From NCBI RefSeq assembly GCF_056746865.1, contig NZ_CM163382.1: 64,000 bases of DNA. One strand, given 5' to 3'. Under the pieces are notes generated by a model. The model worked only from the letters and a program-made list of their open reading frames with translations, was not told the origin of the DNA and did not search any database. The position numbers and the translations under genes are program-made. Within the stretch, counting starts at the first letter, position 1. Each line of letters begins with the position of its first letter. Of this stretch, positions 14,946 to 21,630 are shown one piece after another.

Positions 14946-15565
14946 TACGGTTTTTCCTGTGAGACAAACTGCGACGCAAGCTGCAAATAGTGTGCGTGCA
15001 GGCGGGCAACATCCGATGCGATAGCATCCGGTGCGCCGTTATTATCAATGACGTCATCTGCCACGGCAAGGCGAGCTTCGCGCGGTGCCTGAGCAGCAAG
15101 GATTTGTTCGACATGCTCGCGAGTTACATCATCGCGCTGCATGGTGCGCTTAAGTTGCGTTTCTGGGCTGGCATCCACCACCAGCACTCGATTCGCTTTT
15201 TTATACAGTGAGTTTTCTACCAGCAATGGCACAACCCACAGTACATAGGGGGAAGTTGCTTGCTGGATCTGGTGTTGCGTCTCTTGCTGAATCAGCGGAT
15301 GCAGCAGGGCGTTAAGCCAGTTTTTCTCTTCCGGGTTGGCGAAGATCCGCTCGCGCAAGGCCCGGCGCTGCAATGTTCCATCAGCAGCAATCATGTTAGC
15401 GCCAAAGTGATCAGCAATGGCATGTAGCGCAGGTGCACCTGGTTCAACCACCTGACGCGCAATAATATCGGCATCAATGACGTTAATTCCGAGATCAGCA
15501 AACGCATTGGCAACGGTACTCTTGCCACTGCCAATGCCTCCCGTTAAGGCAACTATATACCTCAT
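14945..15565 (-). CDS. coaE: Dephospho-CoA kinase CoaE
   Basis: 206-aa ORF with P-loop [11 protein letters not shown]. Confidence 0.92.
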
Positions 15566-15789
15566 AATTTATATTCCCGGGAATTCATCATGATTATCAA
15601 AACGTTAAAAATGAGCGCACGAAAGCGAAATTGATGAAACGTTCGCTCACTATTTACCAGGTAAATTTATGGGATTGTAGCGTAAAAAAAGACAATTTCG
15701 CAGTCTTGCGCCGCATTGATTAGTGCGTATGATAGCGTCACTGGAGTTGCGCTCTTACCCTTATAGCCATTAACCCCAGGAATCCGCAC

Positions 15790-16833
15790 ATGCGTATTGA
15801 AGAAGATCTGAAGTTAGGTTTTAAAGACGTTCTCATCCGCCCTAAACGCTCCACTCTTAAAAGCCGTTCCGATGTTGAACTGGAACGTCAATTCACCTTC
15901 AAACATTCAGGTCAGAGCTGGTCCGGCGTGCCGATTATAGCCGCAAATATGGACACCGTAGGCACATTTTCTATGGCCTCTGCGCTGGCTTCTTTTGATA
16001 TTTTGACTGCTGTGCATAAACACTATTCTGTCGAAGAGTGGCAAGCGTTTATCAACAATTCTTCCGCTGATGTGCTGAAACATGTGATGGTTTCTACTGG
16101 CACGTCTGATGCGGATTTCGAAAAAACTAAACAGATTCTCGACCTGAACCCGGCATTAAACTTCGTTTGTATTGATGTGGCGAATGGTTATTCCGAACAC
16201 TTCGTGCAGTTCGTTGCGAAAGCGCGTGAAGCGTGGCCGACCAAAACCATTTGTGCTGGCAACGTAGTGACTGGTGAAATGTGTGAGGAGCTTATCCTCT
16301 CCGGTGCTGATATCGTTAAAGTTGGCATTGGCCCAGGTTCTGTTTGTACAACTCGCGTCAAAACAGGCGTCGGTTATCCGCAACTTTCTGCGGTGATCGA
16401 ATGTGCCGATGCTGCGCACGGTCTGGGCGGAATGATCGTCAGCGACGGTGGCTGCACCACGCCGGGCGATGTCGCGAAAGCCTTTGGCGGCGGTGCCGAT
16501 TTCGTCATGCTTGGCGGCATGCTGGCGGGCCACGAAGAGAGCGGCGGTCGCATCGTTGAGGAGAACGGCGAGAAATTTATGCTGTTCTACGGCATGAGCT
16601 CCGAGTCTGCGATGAAACGTCACGTTGGCGGCGTTGCGGAATACCGCGCAGCAGAAGGTAAAACCGTTAAGCTGCCGCTGCGAGGCCCGGTTGAAAATAC
16701 CGCGCGTGATATTTTGGGCGGCCTGCGTTCAGCTTGTACATACGTTGGGGCTTCACGCCTGAAAGAGCTGACCAAGCGCACCACATTTATCCGTGTGCTG
16801 GAACAAGAAAACCGCATCTTCAACAACCTGTAA
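15790..16833 (+). CDS. guaC: GMP reductase GuaC
   Basis: 347-aa ORF, IMPDH/GMPR TIM-barrel; catalytic-Cys loop [11 protein letters not shown]. Confidence 0.95.
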
Positions 16834-16839
16834 TCTCCC

Positions 16840-16869
16840 AACGCTGGCGTGGAGCAACACGCCAGCGTT
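16840..16869. terminator. Convergent guaC/hofC hairpin (12-bp perfect stem), overlaps hofC stop codon
   Basis: aacgctggcgtg-gagcaa-cacgccagcgtt inverted repeat; no strong T-tract. Confidence 0.45.
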
Positions 16870-18070
16870 ATCCCATTCCACTCATCGCATCGCCTAAATG
16901 GAAAATGGGCAGATACATTGCCACCACCAGCGTACCGATAATTCCTCCCGTTATGATCAGCAACGCCGGTTCCAGTAAGGCTGCGAGGTTATCCGCCAGC
17001 GCCATTGTGTTATCCCGATGATGATGGGCGAGGTTGTCTAACATGAGATCCAGCGAGCCGGATGCCTCTCCTGTTCTCACTAATTGCAAACAGAGTGGGC
17101 TAAACTCACCGGCATTTTTTAGCGCCAGCCAGATGGGTTGACCGTTACTGATATCGTGCTGGATTTGTGTCAGAAGTTGCACCCAGTACGGGCAGCGCAT
17201 TGTTTCTCTGACGCTCTCTACGCCCTGTAAAAAAGTAATGCCTGCACTTTGAGTCAGCGCCAGAATCGTAAAGATCTGCGTGAGTTTTTGTCCCCGCATC
17301 AGTGAACCCATAATCGGGATGCGTAACAGCAATTTCTGCCGCGCGATAAGCCAGGTCGGGCGGCGCATCAGCAACTTATTGGCTATCGCCAGCAGAAAGC
17401 CGAATAACACCAGCAGCCAGCCCCATTCGCCACTAAAGTCTGCCAGCGTCATGATCCCCTGCGTTAGTACCGGTAGTGGGGTGTTGAAGGTCTTATAAAT
17501 AGCAGCAAACTCCGGCAGCACAAAATGCAGCATTGCCACAACCACCATGATTGCCATCGCTAAAATGATGATGGGATAACGCAACGCTGATTTCACTTTG
17601 TCGGTCAACTGACGCTGGGCTTTTTGCTGACGCGCCAGTTCAAAGCAGCATTCATCCAGCTTACCGGTCAGTTCACCCGTGCGGATCATCGCCTGATAGA
17701 GCGGCGGAAATACCTCTGACCAGGGTAATAAGGCATTGGAAAAAGCAATGCCCTGTTCGAGATCGTGCGCCAGCGATTGCAGCAACGCTTGCCATTGCTT
17801 ACTGGGATGCTGTTCCGCCAGCAGTGCCAGCCCTTCAGAAAGCGTTAACCCGGCTTTGAGTAGCGTCGCCAGTTGATGAATGACTTCCGCGCTTTTATCT
17901 CCTCGCCACTGCGCAGAATTGATGGCGATTCGCTTCAGGCTTAGTGGGGTAACCATCTGTTGCTGTAGTGCCATAAGCAGCAAAGCACGGCTCTCTGCCC
18001 ATAGCATCCCATCTTGCGCATTGCCGTCGCCGGTTATGCCACGCCAGCGCCAGAGTTGCTTACTCGCCAT
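16868..18070 (-). CDS. hofC: Type IV pilus assembly inner-membrane platform protein HofC (PilC/GspF family)
   Basis: 400-aa ORF, GspF-type polytopic protein; part of ppdD-hofB-hofC operon. Confidence 0.85.
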   Translation of the reverse strand: MASKQLWRWRGITGDGNAQDGMLWAESRALLLMALQQQMVTPLSLKRIAINSAQWRGDKSAEVIHQLATLLKAGLTLSEGLALLAEQHPSKQWQALLQSLAHDLEQGIAFSNALLPWSEVFPPLYQAMIRTGELTGKLDECCFELARQQKAQRQLTDKVKSALRYPIIILAMAIMVVVAMLHFVLPEFAAIYKTFNTPLPVLTQGIMTLADFSGEWGWLLVLFGFLLAIANKLLMRRPTWLIARQKLLLRIPIMGSLMRGQKLTQIFTILALTQSAGITFLQGVESVRETMRCPYWVQLLTQIQHDISNGQPIWLALKNAGEFSPLCLQLVRTGEASGSLDLMLDNLAHHHRDNTMALADNLAALLEPALLIITGGIIGTLVVAMYLPIFHLGDAMSGMG

Positions 18071-19445
18071 GCGGCATCCCCAATACGCGGATTAACTCTT
18101 CAAAGGTGGTTAAGCCTTGCTCCACGGCCAGGCAGCCGTTTTCAAAAAGCGTACGCATACCCGCCTGTCGGGCGTGCGTTTCCAGCGATTCAACGTCGGT
18201 ATTAGCGGAAATAAGCTGGCGTATGACCGGTGTTATGGGTAGAACTTCAAATAAGGCCGTACGACCATAAAAACCGTGGTAGCAATGTACACAACCGGGT
18301 GCTTGCCAGCGGGGCAGCGGCGACGACCATACATTGTCTGGAATATGGATGGACTCCCCTTGCTGCAGGCGACAATGTGGGCAAAGTTTGCGTACCAGAC
18401 GCTGGGCTATTACCAGTGTAAGCGCTGATGAGAGCATCCAGCGGGCGACTCCCATTTGCTGTAAACGTACCAGCGTTTCAGTGGTGGAATTGGTGTGTAG
18501 GGTAGACAACACCAGGTGACCGGTTTGCGCCGCTTTAATAGCGATCTCTGCTGTTTCGCCATCGCGGATCTCTCCGATCATAATGACGTCAGGGTCCTGG
18601 CGCAATAACGCACGCAAAACGCCCTGAAAGGTGAGTCCGGCACGCGGATGGATTTGCGTCTGGTTTAGTCCGGCTATGGGGATCTCAACCGGATCTTCGA
18701 CGCTACAAATATTAATGTCAGCGGTATTCAGCGTTTGCAGGGCACTATAAAGCGTGACCGTTTTGCCGCTGCCTGTAGGGCCTGTTACCAGCACCAGTCC
18801 CTGTGGTTGTTGCAAGGCATGAGCAAAGTCCGCCAGTTGTAACGGCTGCATTCCAAGCGTGTTGACATCCAGTGCCTGACTCACCTGCTGTAACAACCTT
18901 AATACCACCTTTTCACCACCCCGACATGGTAAGGTCGCAATACGAAATGAGACGGCGTTTCCTGCCAGTTCGACAGTGAATTGCCCGTCCTGCGGCAGGC
19001 GATGTTCCGCAATATCCAGGTTGCCCAGCACTTTTAATCTGGCGGTTAATGCGACTCCGACATCCGGTGAAACATCCGGTAAAGGATGCAATACGCCGTC
19101 GATACGCAAGCGGATGCGGTAGGCATTGTCCGCTGGTTCGATATGAATATCAGACGCGCGTTGTTCCAGCGCAGATTGTAGCGTTCGAGTCAGCAACTCT
19201 GCTTTGGGCTGATGCTTCTCATGAATAGCTACGGGCAATGTCTGTTGTGTGCGACTGGCGTGACCTTCCATTTGTTGGCGCGTCCAGCAGGTGATCTCAA
19301 TACGTTTGGTGGTAGCGAAATGCAATGCGTCTAGTAGCTCATGCGAAGGGGCATCGACCACCGCAACATGAACCACCTCTTCGCTGGCATCCAGCAAGAC
19401 TCCCTGATAACGCAGACACAGGGCGGTGAGCTGTGGAATATTCAT
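18060..19445 (-). CDS. hofB: Type IV pilus assembly ATPase HofB (PilB/GspE family)
   Basis: 461-aa ORF with Walker A GPTGSGKT and C-terminal CxxC...CxxC zinc motif; 11-nt overlap with hofC. Confidence 0.87.
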   Translation of the reverse strand: MNIPQLTALCLRYQGVLLDASEEVVHVAVVDAPSHELLDALHFATTKRIEITCWTRQQMEGHASRTQQTLPVAIHEKHQPKAELLTRTLQSALEQRASDIHIEPADNAYRIRLRIDGVLHPLPDVSPDVGVALTARLKVLGNLDIAEHRLPQDGQFTVELAGNAVSFRIATLPCRGGEKVVLRLLQQVSQALDVNTLGMQPLQLADFAHALQQPQGLVLVTGPTGSGKTVTLYSALQTLNTADINICSVEDPVEIPIAGLNQTQIHPRAGLTFQGVLRALLRQDPDVIMIGEIRDGETAEIAIKAAQTGHLVLSTLHTNSTTETLVRLQQMGVARWMLSSALTLVIAQRLVRKLCPHCRLQQGESIHIPDNVWSSPLPRWQAPGCVHCYHGFYGRTALFEVLPITPVIRQLISANTDVESLETHARQAGMRTLFENGCLAVEQGLTTFEELIRVLGMPHGE

Positions 19446-19454
19446 TGCCGCTCC

Positions 19455-19895
19455 TTAGTTGGCGTCATCAAAGCGGAAGACATCTTCGCAGGCTTGCTGC
19501 AATGCGCTGTCACTTTGAATATTGCAGTTGCGCGTCCAACCGGTGACGCCGTTTGCGTTATCCCAACCCGGCGTCATGACGACGCTTAGCCCATTGAGAC
19601 TTTCTTGCCCGGTCAGCGACACCACGCCCTTTGCCACACTCATGGCTGAAACATAGCGGGTGGTGGTAGGCGAGGGGATGCCATTACTGCCACCGTCGCA
19701 GGTATCTAATCCACCATGTTCCAGCGCGCACAACTCTACGGCGGTACGGTAAGGCACAAAGGTTTGTAGCATGTCGGTGAGTGCGGCTTTGCGCAGGTAG
19801 TTTTGATAAGCGGGAATACCAATGGCGCTTAAAATGGCAATGATGCCAATAACCACCATCAGTTCGATAAGTGTAAAACCGCGTTGCTTGTCCAT
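19455..19895 (-). CDS. ppdD: Type IV prepilin PpdD
   Basis: 146-aa ORF; N-terminus MDKQRGFTLIELMVVIGIIAILSAIGIP is a class III signal peptide / N-methylated pilin motif. Confidence 0.88.
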   Translation of the reverse strand: MDKQRGFTLIELMVVIGIIAILSAIGIPAYQNYLRKAALTDMLQTFVPYRTAVELCALEHGGLDTCDGGSNGIPSPTTTRYVSAMSVAKGVVSLTGQESLNGLSVVMTPGWDNANGVTGWTRNCNIQSDSALQQACEDVFRFDDAN

Positions 19896-20097
19896 TTGTT
19901 TCGCTCCTTGATTTGGTTGGCGCTACTTTGGCAAACGCCATCAGCACAAGCGAGGGGCAAAAAACGAAACGGGAAAGCAGCTTCCGGAGTTTTTTATTAT
20001 GTTGCAGCGAAAGACAAGAAATTTGCGAGGCGTTACGAAGAAAGTTGGGAAAGGGGAGATTATCCGCCCGCGATGGAGCGGATAAATCTGTCAGCAA

Positions 20098-21051
<954 letters not shown>

Positions 21052-21078
21052 TTAGCACCACATATAAGGAGATCCTGC

Positions 21079-21630
21079 ATGTTGTTAGAACAGGGGTGGC
21101 TGGTTGGCGCGCGCCGCGTTCCCTCACCACATTACGATTGCCGCCCGGATGACGAAACACCCACCCTGCTGGTGGTGCACAATATTAGCCTGCCGCCAGG
21201 CGAGTTTGGCGGTCCGTGGATCGACGCATTATTCACTGGAACTATTGATCCGCAGGCACATCCTTTCTTTGCTGAGATCGCCCATTTGCGCGTCTCCGCT
21301 CACTGTTTGATTCGCCGCGATGGTGAAATAGTCCAGTATGTTCCTTTCGATAAACGTGCCTGGCATGCCGGAGTCTCTCAGTATCAGGGGCGCGAACGCT
21401 GCAATGATTTTTCTATTGGGATTGAGCTGGAAGGCACCGATACGCTGGCGTATACCGATGCGCAGTATCAACAGCTTGCGGCGGTTACGCGGGCACTGAT
21501 TGATCGCTATCCAGATATCGCTAATAACATGACGGGCCATTGTGATATCGCGCCGGATCGGAAAACCGATCCCGGTCCTGCATTTGATTGGGCACGGTTT
21601 CGTGCACTGGTCAGCAAGGAGACAACATGA
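21079..21630 (+). CDS. ampD: 1,6-anhydro-N-acetylmuramyl-L-alanine amidase AmpD
   Basis: 183-aa ORF, amidase_2 / PGRP-like fold. Confidence 0.9.

What the first reader, a model, noticed from the sequence alone, without database searches (positions are those of the whole stretch)
16868..19895. ppdD-hofB-hofC type IV pilus module embedded between guaC and nadC
A prepilin with the classic GFTLIE N-terminus, a GspE/PilB ATPase and a GspF/PilC platform protein are all intact. The cluster lacks a secretin or prepilin peptidase in the window. It is known as a cryptic pilus/competence-related operon in E. coli; intactness here suggests the function is maintained.
Basis: established knowledge. Interest (0 to 1): 0.3.

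Follow-up and report, generated by a model that had tools for sequence, protein, structure and literature searches.

The report
E. coli ppdD-hofB-hofC pilus operon
This is the well-known, intact E. coli core-genome operon for the pilin, motor ATPase and membrane platform of a normally silent type IV pilus used for DNA uptake and adhesion; it is real but ordinary.

Summary
Three co-directional minus-strand genes, ppdD (19455-19895), hofB (18060-19445) and hofC (16868-18070), lie between guaC and nadC. The window is an E. coli chromosome with 3 mismatches in 50 kb to strain 118UI.

- **Integrity:** all three genes have the same length as in K-12 and O157:H7 and carry every catalytic or structural motif I checked. 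PpdD is 100% identical to K-12 PpdD.
- **Distribution:** the locus is in 5424 of 5426 complete E. coli genomes. The same gene order holds in all 12 Escherichia and Citrobacter loci retrieved.
- **Selection:** dN/dS is 0.04-0.12, the range of the housekeeping neighbours, so "function maintained" is supported. Strain-level knock-outs do occur (2 of 16 genomes inspected).
- **Missing partners:** they are elsewhere in the near-identical genome. hofMNOPQ is intact, and a 155-aa orphan prepilin peptidase sits beside bfr.
- **Regulation:** a conserved CRP-S-like site lies upstream of ppdD, matching published Sxy/CRP-dependent induction.

Published work already covers the pilus structure (PDB 6GV9), heterologous assembly, DNA uptake and EHEC adhesion. 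Verdict: already known, low interest. The only mildly unusual detail is a near-consensus -10 hexamer (CATAAT) shared by 2.6% of genomes.

The parts
19455..19895 (-). ppdD (hcpA): type IVa major prepilin, 146 aa. It has a 6-residue leader MDKQRG, then mature F1, E5, C50-C60, C118-C130, E53 and H54.
   Evidence: ORF. NCBIfam NF007862 scores 269 bits against a cut-off of 138. The mature protein is 139/140 identical to PDB 6GV9. Residue check. Identical to K-12 WP_000360904.1.
18060..19445 (-). hofB (hcpB; PGAP name 'gspE'): PilB/GspE-family hexameric assembly ATPase, 461 aa. Motifs: Walker A 222-229, Asp box 250-254, Walker B 287-295, His box 310-319, and the cysteine pairs CPHC 355 / CVHC 385.
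   Evidence: Pfam T2SSE 5e-146. NF007755 scores 818 bits against 617. Motif scan. 11 aa differences from K-12.
16868..18070 (-). hofC (hcpC): PilC/GspF-family inner-membrane platform protein, 400 aa, with two T2SSF domains and three hydrophobic segments. Its start overlaps the hofB stop by 11 nt, which suggests translational coupling.
   Evidence: Pfam T2SSF in two stretches. NF007861 scores 662 bits against 401. Hydropathy and the junction sequence. 7 aa differences from K-12.
20021..20042 (-). Candidate CRP-S (Sxy-dependent CRP) site, TTC-TTCGTAACGCCTCGCA-AAT. The right half, TCGCAAA, is perfect for CRP-S. The left half is weak.
   Evidence: Sequence and pattern hit. The pattern count alone is not above chance (32 found, 42 expected). 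The site is invariant in 8 E. coli strains, and its right half is conserved into Citrobacter. It lies inside the EMSA fragment that bound CRP in PMC1635313, where 'one predicted CRP-S site' is reported. That this exact 22-mer is that site is my inference.
19996..20001 (-). Putative -10 hexamer CATAAT, 22 nt downstream of the CRP-S core. This puts the CRP site centre near -41.5/-42.5, a class II geometry. K-12 and O157 have CGAAAT here.
   Evidence: The exact 86-nt promoter haplotype is found in 141 of 5410 genomes. The transcription start is not mapped here, so this is an inference.
19904..19909 (-). Shine-Dalgarno AAGGAG, 8 nt upstream of the ppdD ATG. A second AAGGAG overlaps the ppdD stop codon, 6 nt before the hofB ATG.
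   Evidence: Sequence. Conserved across genera.
16839..16870 (.). 13-bp GC-rich hairpin in the 34-nt gap between the convergent hofC and guaC genes, overlapping the hofC stop codon. It is a likely bidirectional transcript end.
   Evidence: strand folding gives -23.2 kcal/mol (z -3.6) on the minus strand and -23.9 kcal/mol (z -6.0) on the plus strand. It has no canonical U-tract, so the terminator function is inferred.

Best explanation
This is the chromosomal ppdD-hofB-hofC (hcpABC) operon of E. coli, one of four unlinked gene sets that together build the enterobacterial type IVa pilus. PpdD prepilin is inserted in the inner membrane. A prepilin peptidase encoded elsewhere cleaves it after Gly-6. 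The HofB hexameric ATPase, docked on the HofC platform, polymerises it into a filament. The filament passes through the HofMNOP alignment complex and the HofQ secretin and is primed by the minor pilins PpdA, PpdB, YgdB and PpdC. Transcription is normally off and requires cAMP-CRP together with Sxy/TfoX acting at a non-canonical CRP-S site upstream of ppdD. The operon therefore belongs to the competence (DNA uptake and DNA-as-nutrient) regulon, and in some pathogens the same filament also acts as an adhesin. Shown here: gene identity, integrity, motifs, conservation, purifying selection, and presence of the partner genes in a near-identical genome. Taken from the literature: induction, pilus assembly, DNA uptake and adhesion. 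Inferred: the exact CRP-S site and promoter geometry.
For: Gene identity rests on equivalog HMMs above their cut-offs, PpdD being 100% identical to K-12, and 139/140 identity to the cryo-EM pilus subunit 6GV9. All functional residues are present. In PpdD these are the G-1/F1/E5 signal, both disulfide pairs, and the E53/H54 and calcium-site residues listed in bioRxiv 10.1101/2021.04.14.439816. In HofB they are Walker A and B, the Asp and His boxes and the tetracysteine motif. Operon architecture: a 9-nt gap and an 11-nt overlap between genes. The locus is core genome, in 5424 of 5426 genomes, and the same synteny holds in 12 of 12 Escherichia and Citrobacter loci. Purifying selection: within E. 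coli pN/pS is 0.09-0.12. Against other Escherichia species omega is 0.036 for ppdD, 0.083 for hofB and 0.088 for hofC, compared with 0.011-0.098 for guaC, nadC, ampD and coaE. Partners: hofMNOPQ is in 5425 of 5426 genomes and intact in 118UI; ppdAB-ygdB-ppdC is in 5425 of 5426; an A24 prepilin peptidase is present in 118UI. The CRP-S-like site is conserved. Literature: 90-fold induction of ppdD that depends on Sxy, CRP and cAMP (PMC1635313); processed PpdD and hofQ-dependent DNA uptake (PMC3330819); a 12-gene assembly set plus ppdD gives pili (bioRxiv 10.1101/856302); EHEC HCP pili (PMC2920817).
Against: Nothing contradicts the identification. The limits concern activity. No expression data exist for this strain. 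[quoted passage not shown] The left half of the CRP-S site is weak, and the pattern as such is not enriched in the window. The retraction ATPase (yggR/PilT-like) and sxy were not checked in the source genome. The partner genes were checked in strain 118UI, which is near-identical to the window's own genome but not the same: it has 3 SNPs in 50 kb and lacks the IS insertion.
Confidence: 0.9

Rival explanations
1. The operon is a decaying cryptic remnant. It is intact here only by chance and has no selected function.
For: It is silent under laboratory conditions (PMC1635313, PMC3330819, PMC2649431). Sporadic inactivation is seen: a hofC frameshift plus a 12-bp deletion in hofB in SMN197SH3, and a stop at hofB codon 380 in AVS0226.
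Against: dN/dS is 0.04-0.12, comparable to the essential neighbour coaE and far from 1. All three genes are full length in 11 of 12 Escherichia and Citrobacter species loci; the exception also has broken ampD and coaE, which points to assembly errors. All 8 genomes sampled blind are intact. The locus is present in 5424 of 5426 genomes.
Confidence: 0.04
2. The genes belong to a type II secretion system, as the RefSeq product name 'type II secretion system protein GspE' suggests, and secrete proteins rather than building a pilus.
For: PGAP names hofB 'gspE'. HofB and HofC match the T2SS GspE and GspF models at E-values of 1e-137 and 1e-79. According to the introduction of PMC2649431, PpdD can be assembled when expressed ectopically in Klebsiella oxytoca.
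Against: HofB scores below the curated cut-off of the T2SS GspE equivalog (459 bits against 630), and HofC scores below the GspF cut-off (268 against 424). No gspC, D, G-M genes are adjacent. PpdD is a type IVa pilin with a solved pilus structure. The T2SS-alpha cluster is absent from the near-identical genome, yet the operon is retained.
Confidence: 0.02
3. In this urinary-isolate lineage the filament's main selected role is host adhesion and virulence (the 'hemorrhagic coli pilus' type of function), not DNA uptake or nutrition.
For: In EHEC, PpdD pili mediate adherence, invasion, biofilm formation and twitching (PMC2920817). The K-12-like T4P locus is reported to affect UPEC fitness in the mouse urinary tract (PMC2649431, as cited in PMC3855560). 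The nearest genome comes from urine. The lineage carries a stronger-looking -10 hexamer.
Against: PpdD is more conserved than its own motor: 89-92% identity to Citrobacter against 66-79% for HofB and HofC, with omega 0.036. That is unlike immune-exposed adhesive pilins and fits a rarely exposed, machinery-constrained filament. Regulation is through the competence regulator Sxy (PMC1635313). No pili were detected in UPEC (PMC2649431). The two roles are not mutually exclusive.
Confidence: 0.2

Closest known systems
E. coli K-12 ppdD-hofB-hofC (b0108-b0106) / EHEC O157:H7 hcpABC (hemorrhagic coli pilus)
   Same: Same locus, gene order, gene lengths and flanks. PpdD is 100% identical to K-12 and differs at 2 residues from O157 strain Z866. 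HofB differs at 11 of 461 residues and HofC at 7-9 of 400. The conserved CRP-S-like site is the same.
   Different: Only allelic differences: about 2.5% nucleotide divergence, and a -10-like hexamer CATAAT in place of CGAAAT.
Haemophilus influenzae / Vibrio cholerae pilABCD competence pilus operons (CRP-S/Sxy-TfoX regulon)
   Same: A pilin, ATPase and platform operon under a CRP-S promoter. PMC1635313 treats ppdD as the pilA ortholog and hofB as the pilB homolog.
   Different: The E. coli operon lacks the fourth gene, pilD (the prepilin peptidase), which is encoded elsewhere: gspO at the end of the T2SS-alpha operon, or a 155-aa orphan gene beside bfr. Natural transformation has not been shown without artificial Sxy expression plus recombineering (PMC3330819).
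Pseudomonas / Neisseria / Myxococcus type IVa pilus PilA-PilB-PilC
   Same: Class III signal peptide, alpha1 helix with E5, C-terminal disulfide loop, GspE-family ATPase and a two-domain platform.
   Different: HofB is about 100 aa shorter and scores below the PilB equivalog cut-off (488 bits against 676). [quoted passage not shown] The pilin here is highly conserved (omega 0.036); from general knowledge, not tested here, the major pilins of these species are far more variable.
Type II secretion system GspE/GspF/GspG
   Same: Homologous ATPase, platform and pilin-like N-terminus.
   Different: The scores are below the T2SS equivalog cut-offs, and no GspC, D, L or M genes or minor pseudopilin genes are adjacent.

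Membership tests
Type IVa major pilin (PpdD/HcpA equivalog) | Class III signal: a short basic leader ending in Gly, then Phe+1, Glu+5 and a hydrophobic alpha1-N segment | tested here: met
   MDKQRG|FTLIELMVVIGIIAILSAIG. Pfam N_methyl 2.5e-10 and TIGR02532.
Type IVa major pilin (PpdD/HcpA equivalog) | Full-length match above the curated equivalog cut-off, and identity to a structurally solved pilus subunit | tested here: met
   NF007862 scores 269 bits against a cut-off of 138. 139/140 identical to 6GV9 chain A.
Type IVa major pilin (PpdD/HcpA equivalog) | Two disulfides (C50-C60 and C118-C130) and E53/H54, the features of the enterobacterial subclass | tested here: met
   Residues verified. 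Their roles are taken from bioRxiv 10.1101/2021.04.14.439816.
Type IVa major pilin (PpdD/HcpA equivalog) | Cleavage by a prepilin peptidase and assembly into an extracellular filament | not testable with these tools
   Shown for the identical K-12 protein and the near-identical EHEC protein in the literature (PMC3330819, 10.1101/856302, PMC2920817).
GspE/PilB-family assembly ATPase (HofB equivalog PRK10436) | Walker A, Asp box, Walker B, His box and a tetracysteine Zn motif | tested here: met
   GPTGSGKT at 222, EDPVE at 250, VIMIGEIRD at 287, HLVLSTLHTN at 310, CPHC at 355 and CVHC at 385.
GspE/PilB-family assembly ATPase (HofB equivalog PRK10436) | Score above the curated cut-off of the family model | tested here: met
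   NF007755 scores 817.9 bits against 617.
Canonical T4aP PilB (TIGR02538) and T2SS GspE (TIGR02533) | Score above the equivalog cut-off | tested here: not met
   487.8 bits against 675.65 for PilB, and 459.1 against 630.25 for GspE. HofB is a separate, shorter subfamily. It works like PilB but is not filed as PilB or as T2SS GspE.
PilC/GspF platform protein (HofC equivalog PRK10573) | Two T2SSF domains, three transmembrane segments, and a score above the cut-off | tested here: met
   Pfam T2SSF in two stretches. NF007861 scores 662 bits against 401. Three hydrophobic segments at about 159-192, 212-236 and 361-395.
Complete enterobacterial T4aP machine (13-gene set) | Secretin and alignment complex hofMNOPQ present in the genome | tested here: met
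   Not in the window. Intact in the near-identical strain 118UI and present in 5425 of 5426 E. coli genomes.
Complete enterobacterial T4aP machine (13-gene set) | Prepilin peptidase (A24 family) present in the genome | tested here: met
   118UI carries a 155-aa A24 peptidase beside bfr: Pfam PF01478 at 3.8e-22, 41% identity to K-12 GspO, with both Asp-containing motifs aligned. The same allele is in O157:H7. Activity on PpdD was not tested here.
Complete enterobacterial T4aP machine (13-gene set) | Minor pilins ppdA-ppdB-ygdB-ppdC present | tested here: inconclusive
   Present in 5425 of 5426 genomes at the population level. Not looked up specifically in 118UI or in the source genome.
Complete enterobacterial T4aP machine (13-gene set) | Retraction ATPase (PilT-like, yggR) | not tested
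   Not searched.
CRP-S / Sxy competence regulon | A CRP-S site (TGCGA-N6-TCGCA type) upstream at an activating distance | tested here: inconclusive
   TTCGTAACGCCTCGCA at 20039-20024 has a perfect right half and a weak left half. It is invariant in 8 E. coli strains, and its right half is conserved in Citrobacter. The pattern itself is not enriched. The assumed -10 puts the site centre near -41.5 to -42.5, which is an inference.
CRP-S / Sxy competence regulon | Induction that depends on Sxy, CRP and cAMP | not testable with these tools
   Shown for K-12 ppdD (90-fold induction) in PMC1635313.

The most novel reading that the evidence does not exclude
The window's lineage carries a two-base change in the ppdD promoter. 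It turns the K-12 and O157 hexamer CGAAAT into the near-consensus -10 CATAAT at the position expected for a class II CRP-dependent promoter. The exact 86-nt haplotype is found in only 141 of 5410 complete genomes. If this hexamer is the real -10, the lineage might express the 'cryptic' pilus at a higher basal level or with less dependence on Sxy. That could be relevant to adhesion in the urinary tract.
Probability: 0.08. Interest if true: 0.35.

Novelty: already known. Interest (0 to 1): 0.07.

Why it matters
It matters little as a discovery. The operon, its regulation, its pilus structure and its partner genes are all published, and it is present in essentially every E. coli.

The value of this check is as a clean positive control. 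Its "function maintained" inference is now backed by numbers: dN/dS of 0.04-0.12, synteny across two genera, and all 8 blind-sampled genomes intact. The "missing" secretin and peptidase are accounted for elsewhere in a near-identical genome.

Two by-products could be useful to specialists. The first is the dimorphism of the prepilin peptidase at the rpsJ-bfr site: a 225-aa GspO with T2SS-alpha in about 58% of genomes, and a 155-aa orphan gene in about 42%. The second is the unusually strong constraint on the pilin compared with its motor.

Tried and rejected
1. **Attenuator in the ppdD 5' leader.** The simple scan flagged a terminator-like hairpin at 19970-19986. Folding gives -5.6 kcal/mol with z = +0.35, no better than shuffles, so I rejected it.
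2. **CRP-S pattern enrichment.** TGCGA-N6-TCGCA with up to 2 mismatches gives 32 hits against 42 expected. The pattern alone is therefore no evidence. I kept the site only because of its position, its conservation and the published EMSA fragment.
3. **Exact published CRP-S sequence.** It is not in the text of PMC1635313, and no supplement is held.
4. **Key papers not held.** Luna Rico et al. 2019 (reconstitution, doi 10.1111/mmi.14188) and Palchevskiy & Finkel 2006 (PMC1482900) could not be read. Their content is cited only through papers that quote them.
5. **Hidden RNA genes or defence-system relatives.** There is no Rfam match at E<=1 in 15500-21200. PADLOC gives only a P-loop-level hit.
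6. **The 155-aa peptidase as a truncated gspO.** I rejected this. It is only 41% identical to GspO yet covers the whole A24 domain, so it is a distinct allele or gene and not a deletion remnant.
7. **Apparent frameshifts in Citrobacter amalonaticus AUH (L027).** ampD and coaE are broken in the same contig, so these are probably assembly errors and I did not count them as pseudogenes.
Full report
**Observation**

The ORF listing shows three co-directional minus-strand ORFs that fill the stated interval exactly:
- 19455-19895, 146 aa, N-terminus MDKQRGFTLIELMVV
- 18060-19445, 461 aa
- 16868-18070, 400 aa

A 9-nt gap separates the first two. An 11-nt overlap joins the last two, and an AAGGAG sits before each of the first two start codons. 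This is a compact, translationally coupled operon.

The flanks are guaC (15790-16833, +) and nadC. PGAP starts nadC at 20991, not at the upstream ATG that the ORF listing reports. GC content (0.52-0.56) and skew are unremarkable, with no sign of foreign origin.

**Identity**

Pfam finds the following:
- N_methyl plus Pilin in the first protein
- T2SSE (5e-146) in the second
- two T2SSF domains (6e-57) in the third

NCBIfam equivalog models for PpdD, PRK10436 (the HofB model, which NCBI names "GspE") and HofC all score well above their curated cut-offs. HofB falls below the cut-offs of both the canonical PilB model and the T2SS GspE model. HofC falls below that of GspF. They work like PilB and PilC but form their own enterobacterial subfamily. 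The RefSeq product name "type II secretion system protein GspE" is a label, not evidence for a T2SS.

The window is an E. coli chromosome. The 3.5-kb region is 100% identical to strain 118UI, a urine isolate from Mexico. The first 50 kb of the window differs from that genome at 3 positions.

- PpdD is the same protein accession as in K-12 MG1655 (WP_000360904.1).
- HofB differs from K-12 at 11 residues and HofC at 7.
- Mature PpdD is 139/140 identical to the subunit of the EHEC pilus cryo-EM model 6GV9, and it also matches the NMR structure 6GMS.

**Integrity**

All three genes have one terminal stop and the same length as in K-12 and O157:H7.

Every residue the literature marks as important is present in PpdD (roles from bioRxiv 10.1101/2021.04.14.439816):
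- G-1, F1 and E5
- the G11-P22 linker
- C50-C60 and C118-C130
- E53 and H54
- the calcium-site residues K30, D35, E92, E131, D132, R135 and D137

HofB has Walker A, the Asp box, Walker B, the His box and the CxxC...CxxC motif. HofC has three hydrophobic segments.

**Is function maintained?**

The locus is present in 5424 of 5426 complete E. coli genomes.

A scan of species-representative genomes with HofC returned 12 loci: Escherichia albertii, E. whittamii, further Escherichia genomes (two labelled Escherichia sp., one labelled E. coli) and seven Citrobacter genomes. All 12 have the order ampD-nadC-ppdD-hofB-hofC-guaC-coaE. In 11 of the 12, all three genes align full length in one piece. The exception also has broken ampD and coaE, so it is probably an error-rich assembly.

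Nei-Gojobori estimates within E. coli give pooled pN/pS of 0.094 for ppdD, 0.115 for hofB and 0.117 for hofC. Against other Escherichia species:

| Gene | omega |
|---|---|
| ppdD | 0.036 |
| hofB | 0.083 |
| hofC | 0.088 |
| guaC | 0.011 |
| nadC | 0.030 |
| ampD | 0.032 |
| coaE | 0.098 |

The operon is therefore under purifying selection in the range of its housekeeping neighbours.

Loss does happen at strain level. SMN197SH3 has a frameshifted hofC and a 12-bp deletion in hofB. AVS0226 has a stop at hofB codon 380. Both came from the low-identity tail of the hit list. Eight genomes chosen blind with respect to gene integrity were all intact.

The pilin is more conserved between E. coli and Citrobacter (89-92% identity) than its ATPase (73-79%) or platform (66-76%). 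I infer that this fits a rarely exposed, machinery-constrained filament better than an immune-exposed adhesin.

**The missing partners**

No secretin or A24 peptidase is annotated in the window-equivalent 64 kb of 118UI. The window's only extra DNA is an IS element, described below.

Elsewhere in 118UI, hofMNOPQ is intact between aroK and mrcA. At population level, hofMNOPQ and ppdAB-ygdB-ppdC are each in 5425 of 5426 genomes.

The K-12-type gspO, a 225-aa gene at the end of the T2SS-alpha operon, is found in only 3159 genomes, 3145 of them at >=80% coverage. In 118UI the whole gspA-M cluster is absent between rpsJ and bfr. In its place sits a 155-aa "prepilin peptidase" with these properties:
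- It is only 41% identical to GspO but spans the entire Peptidase_A24 domain.
- It aligns with GspO through both Asp-containing motifs.
- It occurs in 2255 genomes, 2252 at >=80% coverage, including O157:H7.

At >=80% coverage the two forms account for 5397 of 5426 genomes between them, assuming they are mutually exclusive, which I did not verify. pppA, yggR and sxy were not examined.

**Regulation**

The 202-nt nadC-ppdD spacer starts with a nadC-proximal hairpin (20057-20089; -16 kcal/mol, z -2.0).

It then contains TTCGTAACGCCTCGCA (20039-20024). The right half matches the CRP-S half-site. The 16-mer and the next 22 nt are invariant in eight E. coli strains, and TCGCAA persists into Citrobacter. 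The sequence lies within the fragment that bound CRP weakly but specifically in PMC1635313. That paper reports one predicted CRP-S site, no CRP-N site, and 90-fold induction of ppdD dependent on Sxy, CRP and cAMP.

Twenty-two nucleotides downstream, the window has CATAAT where K-12 and O157 have CGAAAT. If this is the -10 hexamer, the CRP site centre is near -41.5/-42.5. The transcription start has not been mapped, so this is an inference. The window's exact 86-nt haplotype occurs in 141 of 5410 genomes. E. albertii also has CATAAT, and three other Escherichia loci have CGTAAT.

A terminator-like hairpin in the leader, flagged by the simple scan, does not fold better than shuffled sequence and was dropped. 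A strong 13-bp hairpin (16839-16870) fills the gap between the convergent hofC and guaC genes. No Rfam family matches the region.

**Mechanism**

This combines established knowledge with the results above.
1. cAMP-CRP and Sxy switch on the promoter.
2. PpdD is cleaved after G6 by the A24 peptidase.
3. HofB on HofC polymerises it.
4. The fibre exits through HofMNOP and HofQ, primed by the four minor pilins.

Published evidence for these steps:
- The 12 assembly genes plus ppdD give pili in E. coli (10.1101/856302).
- Sxy expression gives processed PpdD and hofQ-dependent DNA uptake (PMC3330819).
- EHEC makes the pilus on Minca medium, where it mediates adherence and cytokine induction (PMC2920817).
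- The K-12-like T4P locus is reported to affect UPEC fitness in the mouse urinary tract (PMC2649431, as cited in PMC3855560), although no pili were seen in UPEC (PMC2649431).

**Comparison and novelty**

This is the same entity as K-12 b0108-b0106 and EHEC hcpABC. It is the enterobacterial counterpart of the Haemophilus and Vibrio pilABCD competence operon, minus pilD. Nothing here departs from what is known, so novelty is "already known" and interest is low.

The most novel reading not excluded is that the CATAAT promoter allele alters expression in this lineage. I give it a probability of about 0.08.

Noticed in passing
window ~52821-54150: A ~1.33-kb insertion relative to strain 118UI with a 10-bp duplicated target. 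It has 33-nt imperfect terminal inverted repeats (52829-52861 and 54110-54142) and two minus-strand ORFs: 136 aa (HTH_Tnp_1) and 301 aa (rve integrase core). This is an IS3-family element and looks like IS2 from my recollection of IS2's ends. It interrupts the fimbrial-like adhesin gene of a chaperone-usher (yad-type) operon that is intact in 118UI.
   Followed up: partly
window 38820-39167 (-): yacC encodes a 115-aa protein of the PulS/OutS T2SS pilotin family (Pfam PF09691, 2.5e-09; PGAP: 'YacC family pilotin-like protein'). It is retained even though the nearest genome lacks the T2SS-alpha cluster. Which secretin it serves, if any, is unclear.
   Followed up: partly
outside the window: 118UI NZ_CP032515.1 3920799-3921266 (L009:5800-6267): The prepilin peptidase is dimorphic at the rpsJ-bfr site across E. 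coli. A 225-aa gspO follows a full T2SS-alpha operon in about 3145 genomes. A 155-aa orphan A24 peptidase, only 41% identical, stands with no gsp genes in about 2252 genomes, including O157:H7 and the window's nearest relative.
   Followed up: yes
window 19996-20001 (-): The -10-like hexamer upstream of ppdD varies between strains while the adjacent CRP-S-like site is invariant. It reads CATAAT in the window and in E. albertii, CGTAAT in strain 7/2 and several Escherichia species, CGAAAT in K-12 and O157 (the majority type), and CGAAGT in AVS0226.
   Followed up: partly
L011 (E. coli SMN197SH3) and L013 (E. coli AVS0226): These are natural knock-outs of the operon in otherwise complete genomes. 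SMN197SH3 has a hofC frameshift plus an in-frame 12-bp deletion in hofB. AVS0226 has a hofB nonsense codon at position 380. ppdD is intact in both.
   Followed up: yes
L002 (K-12 MG1655 isolate NZ_CP174267.1) 591-1634: guaC is flagged as a pseudogene (internal stop) in this particular K-12 stock. guaC is intact in the window.
   Followed up: no
window 20098-21033 (-): The mechanical ORF for nadC (311 aa) starts 14 codons upstream of the annotated start (297 aa, 20098-20991). The annotated start matches the family model and RefSeq.
   Followed up: yes
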